Assembly (NCBI RefSeq): GCF_963921235.1
Contig: NC_086097.1
Span: 148,058,001 to 148,122,000, forward strand
DNA: 64,000 nt
Direction: 5' to 3'
DNA from: Mobula hypostoma
Lineage: Eukaryota
In this document: piece after piece, positions 1,365-62,802 of the stretch
How the letters are laid out: each line of letters opens with the position of its first letter
How positions within the stretch are numbered: position 1 is the first letter of the stretch
Position numbers and translations under genes: made by a program
The notes under the pieces: generated by a model
What the model was told of the DNA's origin: nothing
The model's input: the letters and a program-made list of their open reading frames with translations, nothing else
The model's database searches: none

Positions 1365-3390
1365 CATATAGAAACATAGAAAACCTACAGCACAATACAG
1401 GCCCTTCGGCACACAATGCTGTGCCAAACATACTTTAGAAATTACCTAGGGTTACACATAGCCCTCTATTTTTTTAAGCTCCATGTACCTATCCAGGAGT
1501 CTCTTAAAATAGCCTGTTGTATCCGCCTCCACCACAGTCTCCGGCAGCCCATTGCACACACTCACCACTCTCTGCGTAAAAAAAAACTTACCCCTGACAT
1601 CCCCTCTGTACCTGCTTCCAAGCACCTTAAAACTGTGCCCTCTTGTGTTAGCCATTTCAGCCCTGGGAAAAAGCCTTTGACTATCCACACGATCAATGCC
1701 TCTCATCATTTTATACACCTCTATCAGGTCACCTCTCATCCTCCATCGCACCAAGGAGAAAAAGCCAAGTTCACTCAACCTATTCTTGAAAGGCATGCTC
1801 CCCAATCCAGGCAACATCCTTGTAAATCTCCTCTGCACCCTTTCTATAGTTTCCACATCCTTCCACTAGTTAGGTGACCAGAACTAAGCATAGTATTCCA
1901 AGTGGGGTCTGACCAGGGTCCTTTACAACTGTAACATTATCTCTCAGCTCTTAAACTCAATCCCACGATTGATGAAGGCCATTGCACCATATGCCGCCTT
2001 AACCACAGAGTTAACCTGCGCAGCAGCTTTGAGTGTCCTATGGCCTCGAACCCCAAGATCCCTCTGATTCTCTACGCTGCCAAGAGTCTTACCCTTAATA
2101 CGATATTCTGCCATCATATTTGACCTCCAAAATGGAAGTCACACTTATCTGGATTAACTCCATTTGCCACTTCTGAGCTCAGTTTTACATCTTATCGATG
2201 TCCCGCTGTAACCTCTGATAGCCTTCCACACTATCCACAACACCCCCAATCTTTGTGTCATCAGCAGATTTACTAACCCATCCATCCACTTCCTCATCTA
2301 GGTCATTTATAAACATCAAGAACAGGTCCCAGAACAGATCCCTGAGGCACACCATTGGTCAGCGGCCTCCATGCAGAATATGACCCGTCTCCAACCACTC
2401 TTTGCCTTCTCTGGGCAAGCCAGTTCTGGATCCACAAAGCAATGTTCCCTTGGATCCCATGCCTCCTTACTTTCTCAATAAGCCTTGCATGGGGTACCTT
2501 ATCAAATGTCTTACTGAAATCCATATACACTACATCTACTGTTCTACCTTCATCAATGTGTTTGGTCATATTCTCAAAAAATTCAGTCAGGCTCGTAAGG
2601 CACGACCTGCCTTTGACAAAGCCATGCTGACAATTCCTAATCATATTATTCCCCTCCAAATGTTCATACATCCTGTCTCTCAGGATCTTTCCCATCAACT
2701 TACCAACCACTGAAGTAAGACTCACTGGTCTATAATTTCCTGGGCTATGTCTACGCCTTTTCTTGAATACTTAACATCTGCAACCCTCTAATCCTCCGGT
2801 CCCGGTGACTTATCCAACTTGATGCTTTCAAAAAGCTCCAGCACATCCTCTTTCTTAATATCTATATGCTCAAGTTTTTCAGTCTGCTGTAAGTCATCCC
2901 TACAATTGCCAAGGTACTTTTCTATAGTGAATACGGATGCAAAGTATTCATTAAGTACCTCCTCTACCTCCTTCGGTTCCATACACACCTTTCCATTGAA
3001 ACACTTGATTGGTCCTATTCTCTCAAGTCTTATCCTCTTGCTCTTCACATACTTGTAGAATGCCTTGGGGGTTTTCCTTAATCTAGTCCGCCAAGGCCTT
3101 CTCATGGCTCTTTCTGGCTCTCCTAATTTCATTCTTAGGCTCCTTCCTGCTAGCCTTATAATTTTCTAGATATCTATCATTAGCTAGTTTTTTGAACCTT
3201 TCGTAAGCTTTTCCTTTCTTCTTGACTAGATTTTCAACTATCTTTGTACACCATGGTTCCTGTACCATACCATCCTTTCCCTGTCTTATTGGAACGTACC
3301 TGTGCAGAACACCACACAAATATCCTCTGAACATTTGTACCGTACATTTCCCTGAGAACATCTGTTCCCATTTTATGTTTCCAAGTTCCT
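1365..3390 (-). mobile_element. 5'-truncated CR1 LINE (RT and 3' UTR), frameshifted
   Basis: ORFs 2788-3132, 2303-2725 (QHGFVKGRSCLT, DVVYMDFSKTFDKVPH, GVPQGSVLGP) and 1452-1856 (ERVQRRFTRMLPGL, RGDLIEVYK, RGHSFK); ends in a ttctatg-type tail at about 1365-1381. Same family as 53190-53660. Confidence 0.95.
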
Positions 3391-3899
3391 GTAAAGGAGT
3401 TAATGTAGTTTTAGGTATCATGTTAAAGTGCTTTTCATAATTCTCTATCTGTGTACATACATCTACTGATGCTTCTGGACACATCTTCAGTGATGTTCCT
3501 GGAATCATCGGGTGTTTCGGGTCTTTCAACATCATACAACCTCCTCCAGGTGACCCAGCCGGGGCTGATCAGACCCCAGCTTGTGTCCAGATGGCTAGCT
3601 ACTTATGACTCCATGGCTCCCCTCTTTTGAGCCACAGCCATCTTGAGGCCCTCTCTGCCGCATTGGTGGTACTGCAGATGGCTCTCTGTCCCTCGATACC
3701 CAAATTGCTGAAGGCTCTAGCTAAGGAACAGGCTGCGAATCCCCTACAACCAACCTCCACTGGGAGACACCTCACTCTCCATCCAGCCTGCTGACAGTTG
3801 CTGACCGGTCCTGCGTACTTGGAGAGCTAACTTTCGAAGGCCTCTTCCAAGCAATCTTCCTATGGGACTGTCAGCTCCAGCAGAACCACTTGCTTAGTA

Positions 3900-5065
3900 C
3901 AGGGGTCCCCAACCTTTTTTGCACTGCGGACTGCTTTAATATTGGCACTATTCTTGCGGACCGGCCGACCTGGGGGAGTGGGGGTGGGGGGGTAGGGTAA
4001 CCAACGGACAAGACTAGCAGTCAAATACGTTGTGTTTACCCCGAGAAAGACTACAATGACCATGAAACCTTGCGCGGGCACCAGTGCGCATGCGTGTACG
4101 TTCCGATTTTTTTTCTACAAATTGTTTTTGGCGATTCTGTTCGGGGGGGTGTTAATCACGACTGGAATATCGGTGATAAGTGGCTAATACACTCAATTTT
4201 GTTTCTAAAAGGATTTATCTAACGAATTTAATATTAAACACACAGCGCGTATTTTCCTCGCATGAATATAGTGATAAGTCAATTATCAGGGGAGGACAGG
4301 GGAGCTTGAAGTAAGTGTTGAACGAACTCCAGCAGAAGTGGTAGAGGCAAGTTCAATATTATCATTTAAAGAAAAATCAGATAACTATATGGACAGGAAA
4401 GGAATGGAAGGTTATGGGCTGAGTGCAGGTCGGTGGGACTAGGTGAGAGTAGCGTTCGGCACGGACTAGAAGGGCCGAGATTGCCTGTTTCCGTGCTGTA
4501 ATTGTTATATGGTTATATAAGTAAGTCAATAGCATCATAACATTTTAAGTAATGTTTGGATATTAAACACGCAGCACATAATTTCCCCGTATGAACATAT
4601 AAAATCATTGCAACACACCAATATCGCTGAATCAGTGGGAGCCCTGGGCTTGTTTCCCTGCAACAAGTCGGTCCCATCAAGGAGTAATGGGAGACACCGA
4701 TACTCGAAGGGGGTTCCTCATGTCCAGTCTATTCCGCAATTTAGTTTTCGTTGCATTCATTGCAGAGATATGTTGGAAATTGAAATAACGTTTTTAGTGC
4801 TTTCGTGGCTATCTCAGGATATTTAGCCTTGACTTTGATCTAGAATGTCGGCAGAGATGTTATGTCAGACATACTTTTCAGCCCGCTGTCATTTGCAAGC
4901 TTGAGGAGCTGGTCTTCCTGCGCTGACACGGATGACGCACGGGCAATGATCTCGTGGGCGTGACAGGGAATGAGGAAAGGTGCAGCTGACTCATATCGCC
5001 AAATCATATCATTTCCTCATGGCCCAGTAGCACTTGCTTTGCGGCCCGGTGGTTGGGGACTGCTG
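3900..5065 (-). mobile_element. Non-autonomous hAT/Charlie (MER1/Charlie3-like) DNA transposon
   Basis: 15-bp TIRs CAGGGGTCCCCAACC (3900-3914) and GGTTGGGGACTGCTG (5051-5065); 8-bp TSD GCTTAGTA (3892-3899) / GCTTTGTA (5066-5073); transposase C-terminal remnant at about 4630-4940. Confidence 0.92.
4317..4518 (+). mobile_element. CR1 3'-end fragment inside the Charlie element
   Basis: CR1 end wording (gtggtagaggc, gggccgagattgcctgtttccgtgctgta, ttatatggttatat tail) flanked by AAGTAAGT at 4309-4316 and 4519-4526. Confidence 0.8.
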
Positions 5066-6179
5066 GCTTTGTAGACTCAGACACAAGGACAGTGTCTGGT
5101 TGCAGGGTGGTGGCTGTGATATGGTTGGGGAACTTCAGCTGCCGTTCGAGGTGCACCAGCAGCTGCCAGTCCCTTGCAGAGGTCAGAATGCCTGCAGATG
5201 TTCTTTTGGCAGGTATTGGCTGCTCCTCAGCTCTGACAAAGGCAATGGTCTGCTTGGAGGGTCGGGACCGCTTCGCCCACTCAACTCCTGTGCTGACGGC
5301 TTCAGCGATGGTCTTCAGGACCTGATCATACCTCCACCTGTACCGTTCCTCACCAAGTGCCCTTGCACAGCCGCTGAGGATCTGCTCCAGGGTTCCTCGC
5401 TTGGAGCACAGTGGGCACGCAGATGACTCTGCCTTGCCCCATGTGTGCAGGTTTGATGGGCTTGGAAGCACATCGTACACTGCCTGGATGAGAAATTGGA
5501 TGCGGTGTGGTTCGGCTTTCCTAAGATCAGCCCGGGTCACTTTCCTCTCAACCGCATTCTCCCATCTTGTCCAAGCTCCCTGTTGCTTCATTCCCACTGC
5601 CTTGCAGGTTCTCGTCTCCTCCTCTACTGCTCTCACCTCCTCCTGAACTAGACGATGCCTTTCCTTCCCTCTGGTGTCCATTTGGGGAGTTGGAAAGGAT
5701 CCTAGCCCAGCTCGGCCTCGTGTGACCACTCTCACCAACCTCCTGTGACGCAGCCTTGCCTCTGCTTCCTGAACAGCTTCCTCTGCCCTCCACTTCTTGC
5801 CAGTCCTCAGTTGGATCCCTGTTCTAGCTACCTTCAGATCACTTGAGTCCCTATACTGTAGCACTTCTCTGGCTCTTGTTACCTTGAATTCTTCCTCCAA
5901 GGATTTGAAGGGCAAAGTGATATCATTACTAGAAAGGAATTAATTACTATCAAACAAATAATTATCTCAAATTAATGTGCTTCTCTTGAACTGGAAATGT
6001 TAAATTCAAAAAACTGAGTTGACAAAGCACATAGGCTAGCTCTAGTTAACTCAGTGTAATAACAAGACCTCATTCATTCCCAGTCTGCCCCATCTGAAAA
6101 CTCTTCTGACAGGTGAACAAAGAATGATAATTGTGGCATCCATAGTTGGGGGTTGAGAGAATTAGCTTCCACTATACAC

Positions 6180-7560
6180 AAGAGAAAATCTGCAGATGCT
6201 GGACATCCAAGCAACCCACACAAAATGCTGGAGGAACTCAGCAGGCCAGGCAGCATCTAAGGAAACGAGTACTGTCAATGTTTCGGGCCGAGACTGTTTA
6301 TCAGGACTGGAGGAAAAAAAAGGATTGAGGAGTCAGAGTAAGAAGGTGGGAGAAGGGGAGGCAGAAGTACAAGGTGACAGGTGAGACTGGAAAGTTGAGG
6401 GGGGGTGGTGAATTAAAGAGCAAGGAAGTTGATTGGGAAAGAGAGACAACAGATTTGCTGAAGACACAATTATTATTGGTAGAATCTCAGATGGTGACGA
6501 GTGGTGTCGCAGTACCAACCTTGCACTCATCGTCATTAAGACAAAAGAGCTGATTATGGACTTCAGGAAGGGTTAGACGATGGAACACATACCAATCCTC
6601 ATAGAGGGATCAGAAGTAGAGAGAGTGAGCAGTTTTAAATTCGGGTATCAAGATCTCTTAGGACCTAACCTGGCCTCAACATATCAATGCAGCTATAAAA
6701 AAGACAAGGCAGCAACAATACTTTATTAGAAGTTTGAAGAGATTTGGTATATCAACAAAAAAACTCAAAAACTTCTATAGATGTACCGTGGAGAGCATTC
6801 TGACAGGCTGCATCACTGTCTGGTATAGTGGGGAGGGAGGGCTACCACACAGGACCGAAAGAAGCTACAATGGGTCGTAAATTTAGTTGGCTCTATCTTG
6901 GGTACTAGCCTACGAAGTGCCCAGGACATTTTCAAGGAGCGGTGTCTCAGAAGGGCAGCGTCCATATTAAGGACTCCCCAGAACCTAGGGCATGCTTTTT
7001 TCTCTCTGTTACCATCAGGTAGAAGGTACAGAAGCCTAAAGGCATACACTCAGCGATTCAGGAACAGCTTCTTCCCCTCTGCCATCCGATTCCTATACAG
7101 ACATTGAGCCTGTAAACACTACCTCAGTTTTCTAATATGTATTATTTCTGTTTTTGCATGATTTTTAATCTATTCAACATGCGTATACTGTAATTTATTT
7201 TTATTATTATTTTTCCTCTTCTATATTACGTATTGCATTAAACTGATGCTGCTAAGCTAACAAATTTCACGACATATGCCGGTGATAATAAATCCAATTC
7301 TGATTCTGATACAGGGCTGAATAAGGGAGAATCTGATAGGCGAGAACAGAAGGCCATGGAAGAAAGAAAGGCGGGGTGGCGTACCAGAGGGAGGTGATGG
7401 GCAAGTAAGGAAATAAAGTGAGAAAGGGAAGTGGGAATGGGGAAAGTGTCAGAAGGAAGATCAGTGGGGAGAGAGGAATGGTCAATGGAGTCACGTAGGG
7501 AACAATACCTGCAGAAAGTGGGAGGGAGGGGAAGATGTGCTTGGTGGTGGGATCCAGTTG
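6180..7560 (-). mobile_element. PLE 3' fragment (terminal repeat plus linker piece), interrupted by a Rex/Babar LINE
   Basis: 6180-6445 matches the terminal repeat at 12319-12560 and resumes at about 7311; 7495-7560 encodes DPTTKHIFPSLPLSA as in the 13250-13290 region. Confidence 0.85.
6448..7310 (+). mobile_element. Rex1/Babar-type LINE 3' portion
   Basis: RFAEDTIIIGRISDGDE, KTKELIMDFRK, ESILTGCITVWY and LLPSGRRYRSLKAYTQRFRNSFFPSAIR motifs; AATAAA followed by an (attctg)n tail. Confidence 0.9.
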
Positions 7561-9090: not shown

Positions 9091-9604
9091 ATTACATCAG
9101 TAGAGATGTTGCAAGTTCTTAAGGAGGTTCTGCAAGCATCTTTTAATCATTTTCTCTCTCCATAAATATTCCTTTCCATTCACAGAGCTTTGGATAAGAG
9201 TGTCTGGTTTTGGGCATATGAATGCTGTGACAAGACCTTCAGTGGTGGGGACGCTGACGTGGGAGAGGAAATAGACATTGACTTGTTTATCCATCCTGTG
9301 TTTTTGTAGGGTTTTTCAGAAACAACTTTGGTGGTATTTTTCCATGGTGCATTATCATACGTATTTATCTTCACCGAGAGGGGATTAGCAAGATATGGAA
9401 AGTTTAACATGTCTTCAAAGGTTTTGTGAACCTTTATTATTTCAGGGCAGTATGCTGCTTTGGAATCAGATTAATGGGGACCTTTGTCTTGCAGATGCAG
9501 GACCTATCCTCTTGTAAGCTTCAGTGAACGACTTGATGACTTGGATTCAGCCTCCAAATGCATGTAAATTCAATTGTCATGCATATGTTGAGTAACAATC
9601 ATTA

Positions 9605-9800
9605 TGAACTCAGTGGGTCAAGCAGCATTGTCGAGGAAAGGAATTGTTAAAGTATTAGGTTGAAAACCTGCCTCTGATGAGTCCTGATGCAGGGTTTCAA
9701 CCTGAAACATCGACAGTTCTTTCACTCCCACAGATGCTGCTTGACCTGTTGAGTTCCTCCAGTTGATTATTTGTTGCTCCGGATTCCAGCATTCTTTTGT
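9605..9800. repeat. Inverted pair of PLE terminal repeats (older subfamily)
   Basis: gaactcagtgggtcaagcagcat (left) versus atgctgcttgacctgttgagttc (right); mutated hammerhead core CTGATGC...GAAAC at about 9684-9712. Confidence 0.75.
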
Positions 9801-10073
9801 GTCTATGTCATCCATATATATTACAGCTTAATTCCTGAGGTGTGAGTGACTGTATGTCATACAGTTTCTGATTAGTTCTGCAGATCAGTTGCAAACCCAC
9901 AGTAAGTCTGATGGAGATGAGTTGCAACATTACAACTAGAGATATTGAGAAAATGGGAAGGAGAAGCATTCAGTGTTTTCGACCTATGACCTTCATCAGA
10001 ACAGGGGGAAAGAGAGTGATCCAAATAGGTTATCAGTAAGTGGGAAGATTCAGGACAGATATGCAGAATATAG

Positions 10074-10280
10074 CAAACACAAGGAAATCTGCTGATGCTG
10101 GAATTTCAAGCAACACACACAAAAGTTGCTGGTGAACGCAGCAGGCCAGGCAGCATCTCTTGGAAGAGGTACAGTCGACATTTCGGTCCTGACGAAGGGT
10201 CTCGGCCCGAAATGTCGACTGTACCTCTTCCTAGAGATGCTGCCTGGCCTGCTGCGTTCACCAGCAACTTTTATGTATGT
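10074..10280. repeat. Inverted pair of young PLE terminal repeats (about 70-bp near-perfect stem)
   Basis: About 10115-10186 is the reverse complement of 10207-10280 with few mismatches; 20-nt spacer at 10187-10206. Confidence 0.92.
10185..10220 (+). ncRNA. Minimal type I hammerhead ribozyme motif (PLE-associated)
   Basis: Stem I GGTC (10185-88)/GACT (10217-20); CTGACGA (10189-95) plus an extra A; stem II GGGT-CTCG-GCCC; GAAA (10209-12); loopless stem III; GTC triplet with predicted cut after 10216. Confidence 0.75.
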
Positions 10281-10989
10281 AGAATATAGGTGTGTTTGTG
10301 ACTGAATTAGCTGAATTGGATTAATGTTTAAGATACTATGCCTATGTAATGATTTGTTAATGGTAAGATTAATGATGACTTGCCCAGCAGGCTAGATTTA
10401 CAAGTGTAGGATTAAAAATAATTTAAAAATTAATAAGGTGAGCCAGCATTTGTGATAAGTGAAACAAATAATAATTCAGATGAGGAGTCCTTCATCAGAG
10501 CTGTGAAAGACAGCAATAGGTTTGGGTAACAGCAAAATGTTGATGAAATGTTGATTTCTCTGATAGGATGAACACTTGGCAGGTAGGATAAGGTACTGTG
10601 AACTGAAATTTATGGCCGATATAATTCTGCATAGTGGACATGTTCAGTAGACCGGACCATACAAAGAGAAGAAAAGAAAAGATAACTGATTTAACAGAAT
10701 TATTTTAAGTGTGTTATTCAAAGTGAGAGAATTTAATGTTAAGTCTTAACAAAAGCAATGTTCCCTGATGAATTATGAGGTGAGCTTGCTTTGGGTTTCA
10801 TGACAGTGTAGGAGGTTACAAAGAGTGGGATTGTGACTTTAAATGGCAGGCAACTGAAAGCTCAGGGTGCTGGCAAAGTAATCATCCACTTGGTTTCTCC
10901 GGTGGATAGGGGAGGAGGCCACACTGTGAACACTGAATGCTGTGCAGCAGGTTGGAAAAAGTGAAAATGAACACACACAAGCACACAAA

Positions 10990-11645
10990 AAAAAACTGGA
11001 GAACCTCGTCAAGTCACGGAACATCAATGTTGGGGGGGAGGGTGGGAGATAAACAATTGATGTGACCAAGGTCCTTCATGAGGACTAGAAAGGAAGGGGG
11101 CAGAAACCAAATAAAAAGGTGCCGAGGAGGGGTGACATGAGGTGAGGGGGAAGGGGGGGTGAATGGTGGGGGTGGGGAATGATGTAAGAACATGGGAAGG
11201 GATTGATGGAAGATGTAAAGGGCTGAAGAAGGAATCTAATAGGAGAAAACAACAGACCAGGGAAGAAGGGGAAGGAGGAGGAGAGCTGAGGGGGGTGTTG
11301 TTGGGCAAATGAGAAGAAGGGGTGAGGAGGTAACCAGATAGGAATGGGAAAAGAGAGAAGGAGGGAGGGGAGAAATTACCAGAAGTTGGAGAAATCAATA
11401 TGTATTCCATTGGGTTGGAGGCTACCCAGATAGAATATGAAGTTGTTGCTCCTCTATCCTGAGTTTGGCCTCGGCATGACAGTAGATGAGGCGATGGACT
11501 GACATGTCAGACAGGGGAATCAAATTGAAGCAGATAAACACCGGGGGATGCTACCTTTTGCAGTGGAGACCAAAGATGTCTGACAAAGCTGTTTTCCGAT
11601 CTGTGTCAGGTCTCACTGATGTAGAGGAGTCCACACCAGATACAA
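10990..11645 (-). mobile_element. Decayed PLE 3' fragment (GIY-YIG end plus terminal repeat)
   Basis: 11380-11640 parallels 12750-13030; terminal repeat with a mutated hammerhead core at about 11055-11090. Confidence 0.8.
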
Positions 11646-12318
11646 GTCCTCACTGGGTTAAGAACACACAGCTTATCAACCCTTGGAAATGAACAAGTAT
11701 TTGGGAGGCCAATAGGGTGGATGGGAATGGATTTGCCAGCTGCTGGGTACCTGCAAAGATCTTCTGGGTGGGGTTAGAACACTTCTTTGTGCCTTCTGTC
11801 CTCACTCCCACCCCTGATCAATATTTGGGATCTGGATGGAGTCAAACAGACGTGGGAGCACCGAACAGATTCACTTACTCACTAATGCATCAGTGAGGTT
11901 GCCTTGTGGCCACTCTCCCCATAGCTATATCTGTGATCCTCTCCCACACAATGTTTTTGTTCATTAACAAATTACGAACAGTTCAGTTTACAAACAGTTC
12001 TCAAAAATGGAACCCGGTCATAACCTGGGGACTGCATTTATTCTCTTTATTTTTCATTTATAATTTATTTCGTGATTTGTTCCCAGTAAGAGCTCTTGTA
12101 AAGTTATTCACTTTCCTGAATTCCGTGACCTAAAATGTCAGCAGTGGTCATTTTTGATGCAGAGCCATTGTTATCAAATAGTTATAATGAGGTAAACTGT
12201 GCGTTCTTGTGTAAATTTCAGTCTGTAGAGGCACACTCATGTCTCAGATTCCTTTTCTTTCGGTAAAACAAAATCCAAGGCATTATTGAAAAGTGAAATC
12301 TGCTAAACACCTAAGAGG

Positions 12319-15140
12319 AAACAACAGGAATTCTGCAGATGCTGGAAATTCAAGCAACACACATCAAAGTTGCTGGTGAACGCAGCAGGCCAAGCAGCAT
12401 CTGTAGGAAAAGGTGCAGTTGACATTTCAGGCCAAGACCCTTCGTCAGGACTAACTGAAGGAAGAGTGAGTAAGGGATTTGAAAGTTGGAGGGGGAGGGG
12501 GAGATCCAAAATGATAGGAGAAGACAGGAGGGGGAGGGATAGAGCCAAGAGCTGGACAGGTGATAGGCAAAAGGGGATATGAGAGGATCATGGGACAGGA
12601 GGTCCGGGAAGAAAGACAAGGAGGGGGGGGAACCCAGAGGATGGGCAAGAGGTATATTCAGAGGGACAGAGGGAGAAAAAGGAGAGTGAGAGAAAGCATG
12701 TGTGCATAAAAATGAGTAACAGATGGGGTACGAGGGGGAGGTGGGGCCTTAGCGGAAGTTAGAGAAGTCAATGTTCATGCCATCAGGTTGGAGGCTACCC
12801 AGACGGAATATAAGGTGTTGTTCCTCCAACCTGAGTGTGGCTTCATCTTTACAGTAGAGGAGGCCGTGGATAGACATGTCAGAATGGGAATGGGATGTGG
12901 AATTAAAATGTGTGGCCACTGGGAGATCCTGCTTTCTCTGGCGGACAGAGCGTAGATGTTCAGCAAAGCGGTCTCCCAGTCTGCGTCGGGTCTCGTCAAT
13001 ATATAAAAGGCCACATCGGGAGCACCGGACGCAGTATATCACCCCAGTCGACTCACAGGTGAAGTGTTGCCTCACCTGGAAGGACTGTTGGGGGCCCTGA
13101 ATGGTGGTAAGGGAGGAAGTGTAAGGGCATGGGTAGCACTTGTTCCGCTTACGCGGATAAGTGCCAGGAGGGAGATCAGTGGGGAGGGATGGGGGGGACG
13201 AATGGACGAGGGAGTTGCGTAGGGAGCGATCCCTGCGGAATGCAGAGGGGGGGGGAGGGAAAGATGTGCTTAGTGGTGGGATCCCATTGGAGGTGGCGAA
13301 AGTTACGGAGAATAATATGTTGGACCCGGAAGCTGGTGGGGTGGCAGGTGAGGACCAGGGGAACCCTATTCCTAGTGGGGTGGTGGGAGGATGGAGTGAG
13401 AGCAGATGTACGTGAAATGGGGGAGATGCGTTTAAGAGCAGAGTTGATAGTGGAGGAAGGGAAGCCCCTTTCTTTAAAAAAGGAAGACATCTCCCTCGTC
13501 CTAGAATGAAAAGCCTCAGCCTGAGAGCAGATACGGCGGAGACGTAGGAATTGCGAGAAGGGGATGACGTTTTTGCAAGAGACAGGGTGAGAAGAGGAAT
13601 AGTCTAGATAGCTGTGAGAGTCAGTAGGCTTATAGTAGACATCAGTGGATAAGCTGTCTCCAGAGACAGAGACAGAAAGATCTAGAAAGGGGAGGGAGGT
13701 GTCGGAAATGGACCAGGTAAACTTGAGGGCAGGGTGAAAGTTGGAGGCAAAGTTAATAAAGTCAACGAGTTCTGCATGCGTGCAGGAAGCAGCGCCAATG
13801 CAGTCGTCGATGTAGCGAAGGAAAAGTGGAGGACAGATACCAGAATAGCCACAGAACATAGATTGTTCCACAAACCCAACAAAAAGGCAGGCATAGCTAG
13901 GATCCATATGGGTGCCCATAGCTACACCTTTAGTTTGGAGGAAGTGGGAGGAGCCAAAGGAGAAATTATTAAGAGTAAGGACTAATTCCGCTAGACGGAG
14001 CAGAGTGGTGGTAGAGGGAAACTGATTAGGTCTGGAATCCAAAAAGAAGCGTAGAGCTTTGAGACCTTCCTGATGGGGAATGGAAGTATATAAGGACTGG
14101 ACATCCATGGTGAAAATAAAGCGGTGGGGGCCAGGGAACTTAAAATCATCGAAAAGTTTAAGAGCGTGAGAAGTGTCACGAACATAGGTCGGAAGGGATT
14201 GAACAAGGGGTGATAAAACAGTGTCGAGGTATACAGAAATGAGTTCGGTGGGGCAGGAGCAAGCTGAGACAATAGGTCGGCCAGGACAGGCAGGTTTGTG
14301 GATCTTGGGTAGGAGGTAGAAACGGGAAGTGCGGGGTGTGGGAACTATAAGGTTGGTAGCAGTGGATGGGAGATCCCCTGAGCGGATAAAGTCGGTGATG
14401 GTGTGGGAGACAATGGCCTGGTGCTCCTTAGTGGGGTCACGATCAAGGGGTAAATAAGAGGAGGTATCCGCGAGTTGTCGCTGTGCCTCGGCAAGGTAGA
14501 GGTTAGTACGCCAGACTACAACAGCACCCCCCTTATCGGCGGGTTTAATAATAAGGTTAGGATTAGTGCGGAGGGAGTGGAGAGCAGAGCGTTCCGAAGG
14601 AGTGAGGTTGGAATGGGGACAAGGTGCGGTGAAGTCGAGACGGTTGATGTCCCGTCGGCAGTTAGCGATAAAGAGATCCAGAGCAGGCAGAAGACCAGAG
14701 CGGGGTGTCCATGAAGAAGAGGAGGGTTGAAGACGGGAGAAGGGGTCATCGGTGGGGGTGGAAGAGTCCTTGCCGAAGAAGTAGGCTCGGAGACGGAGGC
14801 AGCGGAAGAAAAGTTCCGCATCGTGGCGAACACGGAACTCACTGAGGTGTGGCGAAGGGGGACAAAGGTGAGACCCTTACTGAGAACAGAGCGTTCTGCC
14901 TCCGACGGTTGAAGGTCGGAGGGGATGGTAAAGACCTGGCACGGATGAGAGCTGGGATCAGAGGGGGGAGGGGGGAGGCTGGGGGTGTCAATGGAGAGGG
15001 GAGGGTTGGGGTGAGAGGAAGATGGAGCCTCTGAGGGCCCAGGAGTTGACGGTGGGATCTGAGGAAGACGGGGCTGCGGAGTGGTGGTGGGGGAAGGGGA
15101 GACGGGATCACAACAGCAGCACTTGAAGACCCGGCCTGGA
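12319..15140 (-). mobile_element. Young 5'-truncated Penelope-like element, Neptune-type (RT plus GIY-YIG)
   Basis: Manual translation gives LSKGLTFVP, a frameshift at about 14851, then an open frame through KPADKGGAVV, FYLLPKIHK, RPIVS, DVQSLYTSI, GVAMG and RYIDD. A second frameshift lies in the G run at about 13247-13255, followed by a Cys linker (R)KRNKCYPC and GIY-YIG GVIYCVRCSRCGLLYIDET...RFAEH (stop 12749). The 3' repeat has a hammerhead. Confidence 0.95.
12417..12452 (-). ncRNA. Minimal hammerhead motif in the PLE 3' terminal repeat
   Basis: Minus strand AGTC-CTGACGA-A-GGGTCTTGGCCT-GAAAT-GTC-AACT; core intact, stems weakened by CpG-type transitions. Confidence 0.65.
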
Positions 15141-15837
15141 GTTCAACTAAGAGGGATAATTTTTCCTGGATCGAGCTGTTTCAGAGATCTTCATCTCATG
15201 AGTACCCAAGCTGCTAGAAAGTCAGATTGGTTGGCTTCATATCTGTAAAGGAATAATCCTGATTTCCGTCCATTAACTTACGAAGGAAAGTCGTACAGGT
15301 TTCTCTCTAATCTGCTCATTTTCCACTATAAACTATGTGCAGGGAATCAGCCTACCTGAGTACAGACCCAGGATGTTCCTTTCTAATGTACCTAGTACTC
15401 CAGAGTGCAATACACTGGCGCTGAATCTGCACATTCATGCACATTTAACCCTTGTTTTCATGCCTCACTGCACATAGAGCTTCACTTGCACTGTAGGGAG
15501 TTCTATTTGCAACTTGCATGACAAAAAAAACTGGCAAGAAGGCTCTATAAGGCTAATTCTTTCGTGTCGGACCCTTTGTCATAGTACCATGGCCACTATT
15601 GCTCAGACTACAAATTCAGCACTTTGATCTATGTTGTGAATTTATTTGTAATCTTTGCATTTCCATGACACATATGCCTAAATACGTATCCTTTTTCATA
15701 ATGCATTAATCCATCTCTTCTCCCTAATGCAATCTTATTGGTCATAGTTTATATTTTTCCAGCTACCAGGAGCATAAAGATCAACAAATTAATTTTGTGT
15801 TTCTAAATTTTGATTGGAAATTTTAACCATGAAAATG

Positions 15838-17170
15838 CAGACATCCCACCCTGCAAAAACTCGTTTCAGGGAGGTAGCACCCCCGCCGCTCGCAACCCCA
15901 TATCCCCACCCCCCTACGGTTGACCTCCAAGGGTGTATGTAATACTTTGTTTAGTGATTTTGTCTAATCTGTAAACCAAGTTGGGTATATGCAGAAAATG
16001 TGACATTAAAATATGTACTTATATTATCATACTTATTCTATTACAACTTTAAGCAAGTCTACAGGGAGTTTGGCCTCATCAAGTAGGACATCAATAGCGT
16101 AGCTCCTTAGCAGCTAGCCAGCTAGTTTAAATAACGTTAGCTATGCTGTTAAACTCACCTCAACATGTTTTTTACATTTTAATCCATCATGGGCAATAGA
16201 AAAGTCACTGTTGCAAACAGTGCAGCGAGCAACTCTGTCATTATTTTTGAGGTCGACTATAAAGCCCACCCACAGAGAAAACTGATAGGTCTACTTAGCA
16301 GGGGTCCGCAATCGTTTTTGCACTACAGACTGGTTTAATATTGACAATATTCTTGCAGACCAGCCGACCGGGGGCGGGGGTGTTAATCACAACCGGAATA
16401 AAGGTGATAAGTCAATCGCATCATAACATTTTCAGTAACGTTTGGATATTAAACATACAGCGCATATTTTCCCTGTATGAACATATAAAATCATTGCAAC
16501 ACACCAATATTGATGAATCAGTGGGAGCCCTGGGCTTGTTTTCCTGCAACAAGATGGTCCTATCGAGGGGTGATGGGAGATAGCGATACTCAAAGGGGGT
16601 TCCTTTTGTCCAGTCTATTCCGCAATTGAGTTTTCGTTGTATTCATTGCAGAAAACTCCGCTTCACAGAGATATGTTGGACATGGAAGCAACATTTTCAG
16701 TGCTTCCATGGCTATCTCAGGATATTCAGCCTTGACTTTGATCCAGAATGCTGGCGGAGATGTTATGTGAAACATACTTTTCAGCCCACCGTCATTTGCA
16801 AGCTTGAAGAGTTGATCTTTTTCCCGCGCTGACATGGATGATTCACCGGGGACATTCACAAATGGGTCACGGACCCATTCCTTTGCATATCTTGGGTCAC
16901 TGATGAGCTCGCGTGCATTAAAATTCAACAGTGCGTGACGGAATGAGGAAAGGTGCAGCTGACTCGTATCGTTTCATATCGCCGAATCATATTGTTTCCT
17001 CGCAGCCCGGTAGTTGGGGACCACTCTTAGCACGAAGAGAGACCAATCAGGATTCCCGTTCTCCCTCTCCCTCTCAAAAAAATCTATTTCCAGGATATTG
17101 TATATAATTTGCGGGCATCAGGGAGCCACTATCGATATGCAGGAGACTTCCGGGAGAGGTGGGATGTCTG
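15838..17170. mobile_element. Non-autonomous TIR DNA transposon with a 6-bp TSD (possibly an atypical hAT), hosting a Charlie insertion
   Basis: Perfect 13-bp TIRs CAGACATCCCACC (15838-15850) / GGTGGGATGTCTG (17158-17170); AAAATG on both sides (15832-15837, 17171-17176). Confidence 0.85.
16299..17025 (-). mobile_element. Second MER1/Charlie3-like hAT deletion derivative
   Basis: Ends CAGGGGTCCGCAATC and AGTTGGGGACCACT; ORF 16590-16928 is a hAT C-terminal dimerization region (WVRDPF, FWIKVKAEYPEIA, YLCEAEFSAM, KTQLRNRLD); CTTAGCA at both junctions; colinear with 3900-5065. Confidence 0.92.
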
Positions 17171-28912: not shown

Positions 28913-31900
28913 GGGTCATGATGAATGGAGAATTACCAACTTTTATAGCTACTATTTTCTCCAGCGTTATTTTCTTGTCAAGACGCGTTTCCTTTAGTTT
29001 CTTGTCGTCTCTAGATTCCTGGTTACGAAGTTAACACATGCTCGGACATTCTGGAATTCTGAGTTCAATTCCGGCACTGCCGTGTGGAATAGATGAATTT
29101 TCTCCCGCAGTCTAAAGATTTATCGGATAGGCTAATTGATCATTGTAAATGATCCCGTGATTAGTTTAGAATTAATTGGCTTTGTTGGGGATTGCCGCGA
29201 CGGCTGCTAGAAGAGAAAGTGATAGCGAAATAGCGCAAATAAAAAATAATACTGAGAACAGGAGTTGTAAAGAGAGAATGTGAGTGATAAATCAAGGTAA
29301 CAAGGATAATCTTGTTATGTTGGTAAGGGATAGAGTGTAAAGAAAACATATGTATATACTGTATGGGGAAGAAATAACAATTAGACAAATAAATCTACAA
29401 TAAATGTTAATCCAAAGGTGCTGTATCTAAATGTTCTCAGTATCATTTTTCTTTTTTTGCCCTGTTTGTCTTCTATTGCAGATTGGTTGTTTGTCAGTTT
29501 TTGTTTATGTACAGGTTTTCATAAATTCTATTGTATTTCTTTATCTTTCCAGTAAATACCTGCAAAAATGCATTTCAAGTTGTATATGGTAACATATACA
29601 TATTTTGTTGACAAATGTATTGTGAACTTTGAATAATCAATTTCCTGCTCTGCCTTTTTTGTTCCACTCTAGTTTTCTAGATTCCCTCTACTAAGACCCC
29701 ATGACCTCCAACCACACTGTCTTTAGTTTAAAGCTCAACTGGCTTGATTATATAATCTGATACTTCAATGCTTAACCACAGTAGTATTATATTTAAAGCT
29801 TAACTTTTGCTGTTCTAACCAATGGAGAAACATTCCTTTCTTTTTTAATCTTTTTATTAATCTTCGATTGAATGAAGAAACATTCCAATGGACCCAAAGG
29901 GAAAATAGCTTTTTCTTTCTTTGCCAACAAAATACTATGTCAGCAACAAATACCAATCATACAGAATCGTTATTTTCGGTTGCATTGCCTTTAGAGAATT
30001 TGTCCATGACTTTCAAAATGTTCATATGAACTACCGGCCAACCCAATTTGTTGGTGAGATCTGCTGGTCAACAGGATGAAAGTAGTGAAGAGTAAAACTG
30101 TGGGCAGAAATAGAGAAGAGAGTAAAAGACCATAAAACCATAAATAATTGGAGCAGAATTAAGCCATTTGGCCCATTGTCTTACCACCATTCCATCATAG
30201 GTGATTTATTATCCCTCTCAACCCATTCTCCAGCAAGTTTTTTGAAACTTATATTGAAAGAAGTGGATATTTGGGTAGAGAAATAATTAAGGTAAAGTCT
30301 GTACTAATCTATAATTGTTATCATTCCCCATTTTTATTTTACTGTCCATGAGCATCTCTTAAGTGTTCTTTTTATTTAAAAAATACAGTTTTGACATAAG
30401 CATTAAAAGAGATAAAATGTGCCCAAGCAAATCAGCAATGAAATGGAAAAATAATTCAAGCCCAATTTTCATTGAAGAAGCTTTTATTGTCAAGATAACA
30501 TAGAACAGCACAACATAGGGACAGGCCCTTCACTCATGATGTCTGTGCCAACTATGTTTCTAAGTTAAACCAATTTCTTTTTCCTGCACATGATCCATAT
30601 CCCTCCATTCCCATAGAAATGAATCCGTCTTGGCTCTTCTGGTGGGAGCTGGTGAGCTCTAAACATTTCTGAATGTGCCAGCAATGAATACACGGAATTC
30701 TGACAAATGATCTTCTGCCTAAATGTTAACTGTCTTTCTCTTTCCACAGATAGTGCCTGAACTGTTGAGTTTGTCCAGCGTCATTTATTTTTATTTGATT
30801 TCCAGCATTTGAAATTTTTGTGGAATTCTGGCAGTGCTGCGAGAATTCTTCCTCAATCACAATAAAGACGATCTGTGTGCAAATGGTCTTTTGAATTTTG
30901 CGTGTGTATTTTAAAAAATGGAAATAGTCCTTTATCTATAAGGTACCTTTGAACATGAACCTGGAAAGAGCACTATGTCAGGTCATTCTTACCCTCAGCC
31001 ATTACATTCTATAATGAGTCAACCTATAGCCAGGGAAGTGATGCCCCCCCCCCCCTCCTGTTAGACTGATTGAGGTAACTTTTTTTTTATTCTTTCTTAT
31101 TTCTCTTCTAATATTTGTAGATTTGTTTATCTGTGCACCTGTAATGCTACTGTGATACTGTCATTCCCTTTCGGATCAATAAAGTATCTGTCTATCTCTA
31201 TCTATGTGAAGATCTCAATAAAATTTTGATCAGGTATTACATTAATTTAAGTATTTTCTTTCTACTTGGTGTAGTATGTAAACTGGACCTACCCACTGGT
31301 CTTATTAAAGAACTTGAGGGATTTTTTGCTCCTGTTAAAGCCATACACTGATTCAGAGTAAAAGGTGGAAGAAAATGGAAGTCCTTTCTTGGTTGAGCAA
31401 TCTGTTGCAGGACCTAAAAATATTGGTGGCTTGAATGACAGTGCTGTTGGATTATTTCCCTAATGTTAATCCCTTAATGTTTGGTCCCATCTATATATAC
31501 AGCTGTTAATTAAAAGAACTACGCAAGTTTGACGTATGTGTAAGTCTGAGACAGCGCTGATAATCTTTTGGAGCTGGAACATGATTCTGGAGAATCACAT
31601 TCCAGCTCTTTCCACAACTGTAATGATCTCCAACTTATCAAGACAACTGGATTCTTGGCTGCAAAACACAAGGCAGAGATGTAGTCGCAGAGTGCAGAGT
31701 TTCAAAAAAAAATCAGCAAAACAGATACTTGAATTTTTGGGCTAAAATTTAACTGAGGAAGTATACAGTAAATGTTGAGTTACTGGATTGAACCTAATTG
31801 ATATATCTAAGTAACCTGATAAAGGTAGAAGTCTTGAAAAACTGATAAGGTGAGTTTAAATTCCAGAGTGTTATTTGTAAGAAAAATTGCATTAATATGG

Positions 31901-52500: not shown

Positions 52501-53189
52501 CAAGTAAAAGACAGAGGTGGCGGTTGGGAGAAAAAGAGAGGGAGGGAGAAAATTTAGACTGCACTGATATAAGTATAAAAAGTAAGAGGAGTCAAAGCTG
52601 ATTTCCTTTACAGACAGTGACGAAAACACCATTGTTGACTTCAATGGAAGAATCTGTACTTACATAATAGCTTTGGAAGTATAAAACTGTAACATTTTAC
52701 CATGGCTTAAGAAAATAAAATTACAACAGCTGATCAAAGTTTGAAGAAAGATAAAAAAAATTAAGGAAGGCCTTTAAAGAGGACAAAAACAGCAGTGAGA
52801 TGGAATGGTTTCAGGAAGAAGTGCTGCAAAAGCCTTTGGAAGGTGGAGTCACAATCATTATTCATGAGGCAAAGGGTAAGCTCCACAGTGGACAGTTGAG
52901 AACAGGTGGTGGCTGCAGGACTGGGGAAGGTCACGGGAATGAAAGGCAATGGACTGACTTGAACAAAAGGCAGTGATTTTATAATTGCATTGCTAGACCT
53001 GACCTAATGTAGGTCAGTGAGCACAGGTCTAATGGGTGAACAGAAGTTGGTCTGAGCAAAAAAGATATTATATTTAGTCCTTCAGATCTACTGTACCATT
53101 CATCAATGCTGATCCGGCAGAAATTAATCTACTTTGGCTTTGAATGAATTCCTGAGTCTCTGCAGGAATCTGGGGTTGAGAATTCCAGA

Positions 53190-53660
53190 AATTTTCAAGG
53201 ATGTTGCCTGGATTGGCGAGAATGCCCTATGAGAATAGGTTGAGTGAAGTCAGCCTTTTCTCCTTGGAACAACAGAGGATGTGAGGTGACCTGTTAGAGG
53301 TGTACAAGGTAATGAGTGGCATTGATCATGTGGATAGTCAGAGGCTTTTCCCCAGGGCTGAAATAGCTAGCATGAGAGGGCATAGTTTTAAGGTGCTTGG
53401 AAGTAGGTACAGAGGAGCTATCAGGGGTAAGTTTTTTACGCAGAGAGTGGTGAGTATGTGGAATGGGCTGCCGGCAGTGGTGGTGGAGGCGGAAACAATA
53501 GAGTCTTTTAAGAGACTCCTGGATCGGTACGTGGAGCTTAAAAAAATAGAGGGTTATGGCTAAGCCTAGGTATTTCTAAGGTAAGAACATGTTCAGCACA
53601 GCTTTGTGGGCCAAAGGGCCTGTATTGTGCTGTAGGTTTTCTATGTTTCTTCTATGTTTC
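53190..53660 (+). mobile_element. CR1 3' fragment (same family as 1365-3390) inserted in an older minus-strand CR1
   Basis: ORF 53300-53563 nearly identical to 1452-1856; ttctatgtttc tail; flanks rejoin as gaattccagaa/agatttaacaccctc. Confidence 0.92.
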
Positions 53661-54141: not shown

Positions 54142-54240
54142 GGCCCGAAACGTCGACTGTACCTCTTCCTAGAGATGCTGCCTGGCCTGCAGCAACTTTG
54201 ATGTGTGTTGCTTGAAATTCCAGCATCTGCAGATTTCTTC
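54142..54240 (+). repeat. Truncated young PLE terminal repeat (3' half of hammerhead)
   Basis: ggcccGAAACGTCgactgtacctcttcctagagatgctgcc, near-identical to 10204-10250 but with palindromic ACGT. Confidence 0.85.
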
Positions 54241-54612
54241 CTGTTAAGGTTTATCTTAACCACTTTTCTTGTGATTGCAAGAACCTGCTTGACATTGGTA
54301 TTATAACACTGCAAGTCCGGTTCATTGGATCATTGATGCGACTGGTAGCAAGGGAGCTGCAAGGCCTTGGTTGTTCACCAGGCCCTCATCCTGTGGCATT
54401 GCATATTACAACCACCCAGGGGAGAAGCGCCAGAGGTGGTGTGGGAGAGAACAGGGGCACAGCAAGCACATTGGAATCCATGCCTTTCCCATTGGTGCTG
54501 CTCTCCGGTATTCACTCCATGGAAAACAAGCTGGATTGCCTTTGTCTGCGGCTGACCCAGTGCAAGATGAGGGACTGCTCTGTGCTTATTGTTCGGAAAT
54601 GTGGCTGTAGAA

Positions 54613-61265: not shown

Positions 61266-61941
61266 ACTCAGGGTTGGGCGAGGAACGGTGTATAATCGTG
61301 CAAAAGCTCTAATTGACACTTCCCATTTAATGCGCGTCCACAGTGGGAGATAAATTATTTATTTATTTGTGTAAGCGGCACATTTGATCCACTCCGCACG
61401 GATGCAAGCACTCCTCTGCCCTTTTATGAGAGAGAAAGAGACACCAACAGTTCACCTTTGAGACTTCGACTGGATCATTACCCGCGCGCTCTATTGAAAC
61501 TTTTTCTCTGACAAGCAGGACAAGAGATTTGCAGAAAAGAAACTTTGCAATCGGAGAGCGAGGAAAAGTGAGTCAGAGGGGGGAGAGGTTACTGCGAAGA
61601 ATTAATTGCAGTTACCGTTTCAGATAAGTGGAGCAAAGCCCTTGAGGAGAAAGAGAAATCAAATCACCGTTCATTTTTTAAAGAAAAGTAATTCTAAGTT
61701 CAATTGCCGCATGTTCAAATAAGAGGCGTCTTATACGGGGTTTTATTTTTTAAAATTTGGATCTTTTGCAGGCAATAGGAAAAGAAACTGGAAGGCGTTT
61801 AACTGGAGAGATTATTTTCAAGACTGGCACGGGTTGTTTGCTCCATCCCAGAACTGGATCGCGGCCCCTTCCCTGCTTCTCTCTGCAACTTGTCGGCGTG
61901 GTCAATTTCCCCCTTCCCTCGCCCAAATATATGAAGTTGCA

Positions 61942-62802
61942 ATGGCCTCGGACCTCGGCATGAACGCGGACTTGCCCACCAGCCCCCTGGCCATCGAGTA
62001 CGTGAACGACTTCGATCTGATGAAGTTCGAGGTGAAGAAGGAACCCCCCGAAGCCGAGCGCTACTGCAACCGCCTGCCGGGCTCGCTGTCCTCCACGCCG
62101 ATCAGTACCCCGTGCAGCTCGGTGCCGTCCTCGCCCAGCCTGTGCGCCGCCAGCCCGGGGAGCAGTAGCAGCAACAAGGCTCACCAGCTGGAGGATCTCT
62201 ACTGGATCAGCAACTACCAGCATCACCTCAACCCGGAGGCACTGAACCTCACCCCCGAGGACGCCGTGGAGGCTCTGATTGGGAGCTCGCAGACCCACCA
62301 GCACCACCACCACCACTTCGAAGCGTACAGGGCGCAGCAGTACCCCGGGGAGGAACTGCCTGTCAACGGCCACCACCAGCACCAGGCGCCGCCGCACCAC
62401 CACCACCACCATCACCACCACCACCACCTCCGCCTGGAGGATCGCTTCTCGGACGACCAGCTGGTCAGCATGTCGGTGAGGGAGCTCAATAGGCAGCTCC
62501 GGGGCTTCAGCAAGGAGGAGGTCATCCGCCTGAAGCAGAAGAGGAGGACCTTGAAGAACCGGGGCTACGCTCAGTCTTGCAGGTACAAACGGGTCCAGCA
62601 ACGGCACATGCTGGAGAGCGAGAAGTCACTCCTCCAGCAGCAGGTGGACCAGCTAAAGCAGGAGGTGGCCAGGTTGGCCAAAGAGAGGGACATCTACAAG
62701 GAGAAGTATGAGAAGATGGCGAGCAGGAGCTACAGAGAGCAAGGCTCGGCCGCTTCCAACCCTGGCAAGAACAATTCCTCTTCCAGCGAGTTCTTCCTGT
62801 GA
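61942..62802 (+). CDS. MAFA: Transcription factor MafA (large Maf bZIP), 286 aa, single coding exon
   Basis: [53 protein letters not shown] (the EPPEAERxCxRLP segment is MafA-like); [11 protein letters not shown]; His11 tract (62395-62427); [17 protein letters not shown]; basic region [14 protein letters not shown]; leucine zipper; ends EFFL. ATG in strong context (gcaATGG). Confidence 0.93.

What the first reader, a model, noticed from the sequence alone, without database searches (positions are those of the whole stretch)
10185..10220. Minimal hammerhead ribozyme in the window's most abundant short repeat
Seen: stem I GGTC/GACT, core CUGACGA plus an extra A, 4-bp stem II, GAAA, a loopless stem III and a GUC triplet. 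The same cassette ends the PLE (12417-12452, minus). The copy at 54142 has GAAACGUC, whose ACGU is self-complementary. Established: PLEs carry minimal hammerheads with palindromic stem III that cleave as dimers. Inference: the SINE-like repeat scattered here is a PLE terminal repeat spreading a self-cleaving RNA motif, and standard repeat annotation would miss the ribozyme.
Basis: partly seen in the sequence, partly recalled or inferred. Interest (0 to 1): 0.78.

Follow-up and report, generated by a model that had tools for sequence, protein, structure and literature searches.

The report
Penelope stub with decayed hammerhead
The motif is a real minimal hammerhead sequence from the end repeat of a very abundant Penelope-type jumping gene in what is likely a shark or ray, a pairing already described in other animals; this copy is mutated and predicted to be locked in a long hairpin, so it is likely an inert stub.

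Summary
The hammerhead pattern at 10185-10220 is real: the only descriptor match in the window, none in 200 shuffles. Its stem III word is AUGU, not the palindrome ACGU, and it lies in one arm of a 207-bp fold-back insertion with a 9-bp target duplication, predicted to bury it. The 12417-12452 copy is also decayed; the 54142 copy lacks the CUGACGA half. The repeat is not an independent SINE. It is the 3' end of a Neptune-type Penelope-like element (PLE): 4 of 4 tandem copies fetched carry a 1,040-1,043-codon RT/GIY-YIG frame between two hammerheads 3.5 kb apart. Such ribozymes are described (Cervera 2014). A 1.54-Mb sample extrapolates to about 0.8 million fragments, about 84,000 pattern-intact. 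The core is kept in source lineages but decays freely in copies. Stub 5' ends pile up about 50-fold at the ribozyme's front edge, not at its cut site, likely run-off from an uncut RNA start. Cleavage was not tested. This scan has reported the same thing on other genomes (42 findings, at least 17 genomes). New member of a known kind.

The parts
10185..10220 (+). Minimal type I hammerhead pattern; predicted cut between 10216 and 10217; stem III palindrome broken by a C-to-T change at 10213
10186..10280 (+). Plus arm of the fold-back insertion: PLE end from -30 to +64 relative to the cut site; ends at the inner 3' end point, no tail
10074..10189 (-). Minus arm: PLE end from inside stem II to the outer 3' end point; 10113-10189 is 95% complementary to 10204-10280 over 77 nt
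   Evidence: (I13)
10074..10112 (-). Unpaired 'tail' of about 39 nt, present on one arm only
   Evidence: feature described in PMC8557442
10065..10073 (+). Left copy of the 9-bp target-site duplication AGAATATAG
10281..10289 (+). Right copy of the 9-bp target-site duplication
12319..15146 (-). 5'-truncated PLE copy (2.8 kb of a 3.5-kb unit, 97% identical to the L152 unit), one terminal repeat only, 8-bp target duplication at 12311-12318 and 15147-15154
13176..14876 (-). RT part of the PLE frame (566 aa open stretch; frame broken at both ends)
   Evidence: RVT_1 E 0.0026
12749..13603 (-). Linker and GIY-YIG endonuclease part, in another frame
   Evidence: GIY-YIG E 0.13; intact relatives
12417..12452 (-). 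Decayed hammerhead of that PLE (AUGU; stem I mismatch); fails descriptor
54142..54245 (+). Stub that starts in stem II; keeps GAAACGUC, lacks CUGACGA
9604..9792 (.). Older fold-back pair; plus arm belongs to the subfamily with a CUGAUGCA core
6178..6315 (-). Older decayed stub; further decayed copies near 9954, 10980, 19281/19332, 21282/21361, 28779, 30693, 32207, 35777, 38597, 44403/44587, 46224, 48105, 49179, 50953
   Evidence: 24 hits in the window

Best explanation
The 36-nt motif is the minimal hammerhead pattern carried in the terminal repeat (pLTR) of a young, very abundant Neptune-type Penelope-like retrotransposon, and the copy at 10185 is a mutated arm of a short fold-back insertion that is predicted to be inert. 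Shown: the intact element is a 3.5-kb partial tandem, pLTR - one frame of about 1,040 codons (RT, CX4CxxC linker, GIY-YIG) - pLTR, each pLTR holding the motif; genomic copies end at one of two points, about 65 and 95-101 nt past the predicted cut site; their 5' ends vary and pile up at the first bases of stem I. Inferred mechanism: the element's protein nicks both strands of a target (duplications of 8-15 bp), primes reverse transcription at the two sites inside the pLTR RNA, and the two copies are joined head to head, giving hairpins with a tail on one arm. Priming in the 5' pLTR of a transcript that begins at or just before stem I would give the 95-135-nt run-off stubs that look like a SINE; priming in the 3' pLTR would give the longer truncated copies. 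The ribozyme likely works only in source elements, as a dimer through the ACGU palindrome or with the element's protein, and the RNA that is copied is likely mostly uncut. After insertion the motif decays neutrally.
For: Identity: 4 of 4 tandem loci fetched have an unbroken 1,040-1,043-codon frame between two motifs about 3.5 kb apart (chosen from 20 loci because they showed an upstream pLTR); RVT_1 E 3.7e-5 and GIY-YIG E 0.001; best named relative 72% identical from a bamboo shark. Stubs are PLE ends: of 65 young segments in 154 evenly spaced 10-kb samples, 24 run more than 100 nt into the PLE body, up to 1.9 kb; older subfamilies share their own upstream UTRs. Two 3' end points, target duplications of 8 bp or more in 14 of 17 two-arm and 15 of 36 single insertions vs 1 of 52 controls, matching the inverted copy plus 30-40-bp tail in PMC8557442 and the two RT start sites in PMC11167929. 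This copy: -152 kcal/mol hairpin, pairing probability of stems I and II 0.0 in context vs 0.32/0.58 without the upstream arm. Selection in sources: three subfamily models share 32-34 of 36 motif positions but 63-73 of 100 upstream, all 11 core positions alike in their printed consensus; the two CpGs around the cut are altered in 40 of 149 young segments yet kept in those models. No selection in copies: core 139/1270 vs downstream 879/7631 mismatches. 5'-end pile-up: 12 of 55 young segments start at -34 to -28, 0.053 per base at risk vs 0.0010 at -500 to -57; same peak in older families. The A at -31 is the +1 of a YYANWYY initiator-like word in the subfamily models (consensus recalled).
Against: No cleavage, transcription start or expression was shown; public runs were contigs only and uninformative. 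The pile-up is broad (30 of 55 starts at -56 to -1), which fits stalling as well as run-off. The initiator-like word is also a pyrimidine tract plus AG, i.e. a splice acceptor. The G excess at -31 in solo stubs (13 of 50 vs 1 of 54 long copies) is only a weak hint of a cap. One older subfamily amplified with C at core position 9 (24 of 27 loci), and the youngest has G-U instead of G-C at the base of stem II. The region +15 to +66 is also conserved (23-26 of 31, 14-18 of 21), so conservation is not unique to the ribozyme. Neptune vs Nematis was not settled by a tree.
Confidence: 0.8

Rival explanations
1. The 5'-end pile-up comes from reverse transcriptase stalling or falling off just after it has copied the folded or protein-bound hammerhead, on ordinary long transcripts, not from running off the RNA start.
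For: Starts are raised across the whole motif (13 of 55 at -27 to -1, rate 0.010 vs 0.001) and up to -56; the peak coincides with the base of stem I.
Against: In the young family the motif is predicted not to fold when 20-90 nt of upstream UTR are present (stem I 0.001-0.005 vs 0.64 when the RNA starts at stem I); the peak sits on an initiator-like word.
Confidence: 0.3
2. The sequence keeps the hammerhead shape but no longer needs to cut in this lineage; it is held by promoter or protein-binding roles.
For: A subfamily with a non-canonical core amplified; no excess of copies starting at the cut site beyond two explained by junction microhomology; in the anole element catalytic mutants insert normally in vitro (PMC11167929).
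Against: Changes between the main subfamilies fall on N7, loop II, position 17 and pair-keeping sites, and one older cluster swaps C-G for U-A in stem I (12 copies); hypermutable CpGs of the palindrome are kept; the anole ribozyme does cut with its protein.
Confidence: 0.25
3. The stubs are copies of a spliced RNA whose acceptor is the AG at the start of stem I, as in Drosophila virilis Penelope, where an intron ends at helix I.
For: A pyrimidine tract and AG precede stem I in long copies (AG in 51-53 of 54); the D. virilis precedent (PMC4209133).
Against: No shared first exon in front of the stubs; the peak is at -31/-30, before the AG, not after it; no GT..AG joint among the joints shown (258 joints not shown).
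Confidence: 0.1
4. One reading: a SINE-like unit derived from the pLTR transposes on its own and spreads a working self-cleaving RNA.
For: Over half of young segments are under 160 nt with a preferred 5' end; about 63,000 copies extrapolate to an intact pattern with palindrome; one locus has 4-5 head-to-tail units of about 93 nt (L212).
Against: Stubs share subfamily-diagnostic sequence with long copies, have a continuum of 5' ends, no head of their own, and are often one arm of a fold-back with a shared target duplication; copies decay neutrally.
Confidence: 0.1
5. Stubs are retrocopies of the ribozyme's 3' cleavage product.
For: 2 of 55 young segments start exactly at +1.
Against: Both are inverted junctions with 3-4-nt overlaps that reproduce those letters; 51 of 55 segments extend 5' of the cut site.
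Confidence: 0.04

Closest known systems
Minimal hammerheads (min-HHR) in pLTRs of metazoan PLEs (Cervera and De la Pena 2014, PMC4209133)
   Same: Type I, conserved boxes, extra base between 9 and 10.1, 4-5-bp stem I, palindromic 15.2-16.2, located in both pLTRs, mostly found as single motifs of truncated copies, pairs on opposite strands; reported in Xena, Poseidon and Neptune of fishes, coelacanth and Xenopus.
   Different: Host is a cartilaginous fish (none named in the parts read or the supplement searched); stem II is only 4 bp; extrapolated number about 84,000 vs about 4,000 and 9,000 reported there (different descriptors); a subfamily with C at position 9.
PAc, Poseidon element of Anolis carolinensis (Frangieh et al. 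2024, PMC11167929)
   Same: Hammerhead upstream of two RT start sites that define a 30-40-nt tail; no sign of the cut site at ends of RNA reads there, or of DNA copies here.
   Different: Here the frame opens about 55 nt past the cut site rather than in stem II, and carries the CX4CxxC linker that Poseidon lacks.
Neptune/Nematis clades of EN+ PLEs (as defined in Craig et al. 2021, PMC8557442)
   Same: RT, CX2-5CxxC linker, C-terminal GIY-YIG; partial tandem; inverted 5'-truncated copy; tail.
   Different: Clade not fixed by phylogeny here; target duplications are readily seen and no microsatellite bias was looked for.
Non-LTR retrozymes (Li et al. 2026, bioRxiv 10.64898/2026.07.22.740005)
   Same: PLE-derived hammerhead repeats; reported in the one chondrichthyan sampled.
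   Different: Those are head-to-tail arrays; these are dispersed stubs and head-to-head fold-backs (one array-like locus, L212).

Membership tests
PLE minimal hammerhead (Cervera 2014) | CUGANGA, GAAA and UH boxes in type I order | tested here: met
PLE minimal hammerhead (Cervera 2014) | One extra base between positions 9 and 10.1 | tested here: met
   A at 10196; 29 of 29 descriptor hits
PLE minimal hammerhead (Cervera 2014) | G10.1-C11.1 pair | tested here: inconclusive
   met in this copy; the commonest intact form has G-U
PLE minimal hammerhead (Cervera 2014) | Palindromic 15.2-16.2, family level | tested here: met
   28 of 37 descriptor hits; all 8 motifs in L151-L154
PLE minimal hammerhead (Cervera 2014) | Palindromic 15.2-16.2, the copy at 10185 | tested here: not met
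   UG instead of CG
PLE minimal hammerhead (Cervera 2014) | Lies in both pLTRs of a PLE | tested here: met
   4 of 4 tandem loci
PLE minimal hammerhead (Cervera 2014) | Self-cleavage as dimer or with protein | not testable with these tools
   needs in vitro assay
EN+ PLE, Neptune/Nematis type | Single frame with RT and C-terminal GIY-YIG | tested here: met
   (both Pfam scores below the curated cut-off)
EN+ PLE, Neptune/Nematis type | CX2-5CxxC linker between RT and EN | tested here: met
   CX4CxxC in 4 of 4 intact frames; definition
EN+ PLE, Neptune/Nematis type | Partial tandem, inverted truncated copy, 30-40-bp tail | tested here: met
EN+ PLE, Neptune/Nematis type | RT phylogeny places it in Neptune | not tested
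   no named reference set at hand
SINE | Own 5' head unrelated to the partner element, fixed length | tested here: not met
   no shared non-PLE head; continuum of 5' ends
Non-LTR retrozyme | Two or more head-to-tail units each with a hammerhead | tested here: not met
   window copies are dispersed or head-to-head; L212 is a possible exception elsewhere

The most novel reading that the evidence does not exclude
The hundreds of thousands of stubs are 'strong-stop'-like run-off copies made from the 5' pLTR of an uncut transcript that starts at the first base of stem I. The genome thus records in vivo that cleavage is not needed for insertion, and in the young family the ribozyme is a positional switch, able to fold only at the RNA's 5' end and shut by the upstream UTR in the 3' pLTR. 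An older subfamily spread with a non-canonical CUGAUGCA core.
Probability: 0.35. Interest if true: 0.5.

Novelty: new member of a known kind. Interest (0 to 1): 0.3.

Why it matters
The ribozyme-PLE pairing is known and this copy is likely inert, so the finding as stated is ordinary. What is of use: a vertebrate family with intact frames and about 10^5 pattern-intact motifs, and a sharp genomic footprint (5' ends at the ribozyme's front, not at its cut) that bears on the open question of what PLE hammerheads do (called unclear in PMC8557442; dispensable for insertion in vitro in PMC11167929) and can be settled by 5' RACE and a cleavage assay.

Tried and rejected
Rfam: no hit at gathering score in the window, no hammerhead family at E up to 10 near the motif. 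PDB sequence search with the RT stretch: none. Genome search with only the +1 to +101 part returned nothing because common words are skipped; no evidence of rarity. Expression: no RNA holder listed on record; contigs of guessed-RNA runs from four organisms hold the repeat but show no start, end, strand or splice. Idea that a source element with a broken palindrome kept transposing: rejected; the 6 such copies in a 38-row tree need 6 changes (shuffled mean 5.8) and share no private change. Shared first exon in front of stubs: not found. Excess of starts at the cut site: not found. Isolated 36-71-nt folds are no more stable than shuffles (z -1.27 to +0.44), and the monomer and cofold minimum-energy structures pair the core with stem III, so folding alone neither shows nor excludes the active dimer. 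Relatives of the old copy at 30693 were listed but their DNA was not obtained, so the oldest subfamily rests on 12 copies. Lunse et al. 2017 (PMC5785218) was not held, so whether the CUGAUGCA variant is described there is open.

Full report
Observation. A descriptor for a loopless type I hammerhead finds this one site in the window and none in 200 dinucleotide shuffles; in 100 evenly spaced 10-kb stretches of the genome it finds 29, and none in 20 shuffles of that megabase. Rfam has no match. A profile built from the repeat finds 24 segments in the window and none in reversed sequence. Three details change the picture. The two bases after GAAA are UG, so the stem III word is AUGU and not the palindrome ACGU. 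The copy at 12417-12452 has the same change plus a stem I mismatch and fails the descriptor. The copy at 54142 has ACGU but lacks the whole CUGACGA half.

The insertion around the motif. 10113-10189 is 95% complementary to 10204-10280 over 77 nt. The unit 10074-10280 is flanked by a 9-bp direct repeat. Mapped on an intact element, the plus arm runs from -30 to +64 relative to the predicted cut and the minus arm from inside stem II to the outer end, leaving an unpaired tail of about 39 nt. A plus-strand RNA across the unit folds into one hairpin of -152 kcal/mol (z -21.7) in which stems I and II have pairing probability 0.0, against 0.32 and 0.58 if the RNA began at 10185. So this copy is predicted to be inert twice over. 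Inverted 5'-truncated copies with a 30-40-bp tail are the described insertion form of PLEs (PMC8557442, passages; PMC3846280, passages).

The parent element. The window lies in a 3.48-Gb genome. The window's own long copy, 12319-15146 on the minus strand, has an 8-bp target duplication, one terminal repeat and a broken frame. Of 20 loci found with its 5' part, one being the window itself, 4 showed an upstream terminal repeat in direct orientation; all 4, fetched whole, have an unbroken frame of 1,040-1,043 codons between two hammerhead motifs about 3.5 kb apart, all 8 with ACGU. The protein has RVT_1 (E 3.7e-5) and GIY-YIG (E 0.001) matches, both under Pfam's cut-off, and a CX4CxxC linker, which marks the Neptune and Nematis clades. 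Its best named relative, 72% identical, is from a bamboo shark, so the host is inferred to be a shark or ray. The clade was not fixed by a tree.

Abundance. In 154 evenly spaced 10-kb stretches from 17 large contigs (1.54 Mb) the profile gives 358 segments (232 per Mb, bootstrap 203-263; 36,663 bases, 2.4%), the descriptor 37 (one from another family), 28 of them with a Watson-Crick palindrome. Extrapolated: about 0.8 million segments, about 84,000 (56,000-113,000) pattern-intact and 63,000 (41,000-88,000) with palindrome. Cervera and De la Pena give about 4,000 for coelacanth and 9,000 for Xenopus with a different descriptor.

SINE or stub. The 29 best genomic matches to the terminal repeat besides the window's own are PLE 3' ends of varied length, many with an inverted second arm (that query favoured copies reaching -44). 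In the unbiased sample, 65 young segments away from region edges (67 before dropping 2) end in two clusters, near +65 and +95 to +101; 24 run more than 100 nt into the body. Target duplications of 8 bp or more flank 14 of 17 two-arm and 15 of 36 single insertions, against 1 of 52 shifted controls (two of the 53 are in the window). Older subfamilies have their own shared upstream UTRs. No head foreign to the PLE was seen. The two end points match the two internal RT start sites that define the tail in the anole element (PMC11167929, parts 1-2 of 4). The short repeat is therefore the truncated end of the autonomous element.

Selection. Three subfamily models share 32-34 of 36 motif positions, 63-73 of 100 upstream positions, 5 of 10 just downstream and 23-26 of 31 further on; their differences lie at N7, loop II, position 11.1 and position 17. 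A 12-copy older cluster has U-A for C-G in stem I. The CpG sites at the palindrome and the cut are altered in 40 of 149 young segments (a set partly chosen by likeness to decayed copies) yet kept in those models. In inserted copies of the older families the core is not protected: 139 of 1,270 vs 879 of 7,631 downstream, CpG sites masked. Against a strict requirement: an older PLE-linked subfamily has C at position 9 in 24 of 27 loci (30 fetched with a query bearing that C; the query and two duplicates dropped), and the youngest family has G-U at the base of stem II. Copies with broken palindrome do not form a lineage.

Where the stubs begin. Of 55 young segments bearing a diagnostic downstream word (of 67), 12 start at -34 to -28, 0.053 per base at risk against 0.0010 at -500 to -57, and 30 start between -56 and -1. 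Older families peak at -31 and -30 too (13 and 11 of 182), though unmodelled UTRs can inflate that. Two start at +1, both at inverted junctions with short overlaps; 51 of 55 include sequence 5' of the cut. So the copied RNA is mostly uncut, in line with the in vitro result that catalytic mutants insert normally. Position -31 is the first base of stem I and the A of a YYANWYY word (initiator consensus recalled); D. virilis Penelope is transcribed from within its upstream pLTR (PMC2377424, passages). I infer run-off from a transcript starting there, primed in the 5' pLTR (about even odds), with RT stalling (0.3) and splicing at the AG (0.1) as rivals. In solo stubs position -31 is G in 13 of 50 against 1 of 54 long copies, a weak hint of a copied cap. 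In the young and one other model the motif is predicted to fold when the RNA starts at stem I and to be shut by 40 nt of upstream UTR; in the old model it is not shut. Public runs could not test any of this.

What is known. PMC4209133 (parts 1-2 of 4 and a supplement search, one file not searchable) defines this motif class, its extra base, palindrome, place in both pLTRs, spread as single motifs of truncated copies, and low dimer-only activity. PMC6765202 and PMC6155905 (passages) review it. The 2026 preprint on retrozymes (part 1 of 5, passages, Discussion; supplements not seen) reports tandem hammerhead repeats in one chondrichthyan. Lunse 2017 was seen only as a title. Five searches listed no paper on shark or ray PLE hammerheads or on a 5'-end pile-up; the library lacks most subscription papers. 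Earlier notes of this scan (read) report the same family, the same decay and the same pile-up in other genomes; they are unchecked AI notes, gave me the leads on target duplications and the cap, and are not counted as support.

Verdict. A real motif, a new member of a known kind; the named copy is likely inert and the SINE reading is not supported. Interest 0.3. The footprint of 5' ends is the part worth a bench test.

Noticed in passing
window 9677-9792; L241-L270: Older PLE-linked subfamily whose core reads CUGAUGCA (C at position 9, or a C inserted after G8) in 24 of 27 loci, with a UUCG-type loop II; two loci have GIY-YIG remnants upstream.
   Followed up: partly
L212:131-940: Four to five head-to-tail units of about 93 nt (-38 to +55), each spanning the hammerhead: a retrozyme-like array inside a fold-back insertion.
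   Followed up: no
window 10113-10280: Both arms carry the same C-to-T change in the palindrome; of 28 arm pairs listed, 2 share a changed state and 9 differ. Template-borne change, conversion or chance.
   Followed up: partly
L031:5159-5200: A hammerhead pattern of a different family with a 6-bp stem II, suggesting a second PLE lineage in this genome.
   Followed up: no
window 61723-62802 (+): Large Maf transcription factor gene (bZIP_Maf E 7.9e-33, Maf_N E 3.4e-20).
   Followed up: no
window 10980-11516: Older decayed PLE 3' end (minus strand), 77-78% like the young element's endonuclease region, ending in a decayed terminal repeat.
   Followed up: no
window 1452-3568 (-), 53188-53650, 5004-5939 (-), 4522-4916 and 16408-16973: Other repeat relics: LINE-like RT frames, an RT/zinc-finger-like frame and a duplicated transposase-like tail (types judged by eye from the translations, not tested).
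   Followed up: no
L151-L154: All four tandem copies examined have unbroken frames and three have 98.7-99.4% identical terminal repeats, so the family is young.
   Followed up: partly
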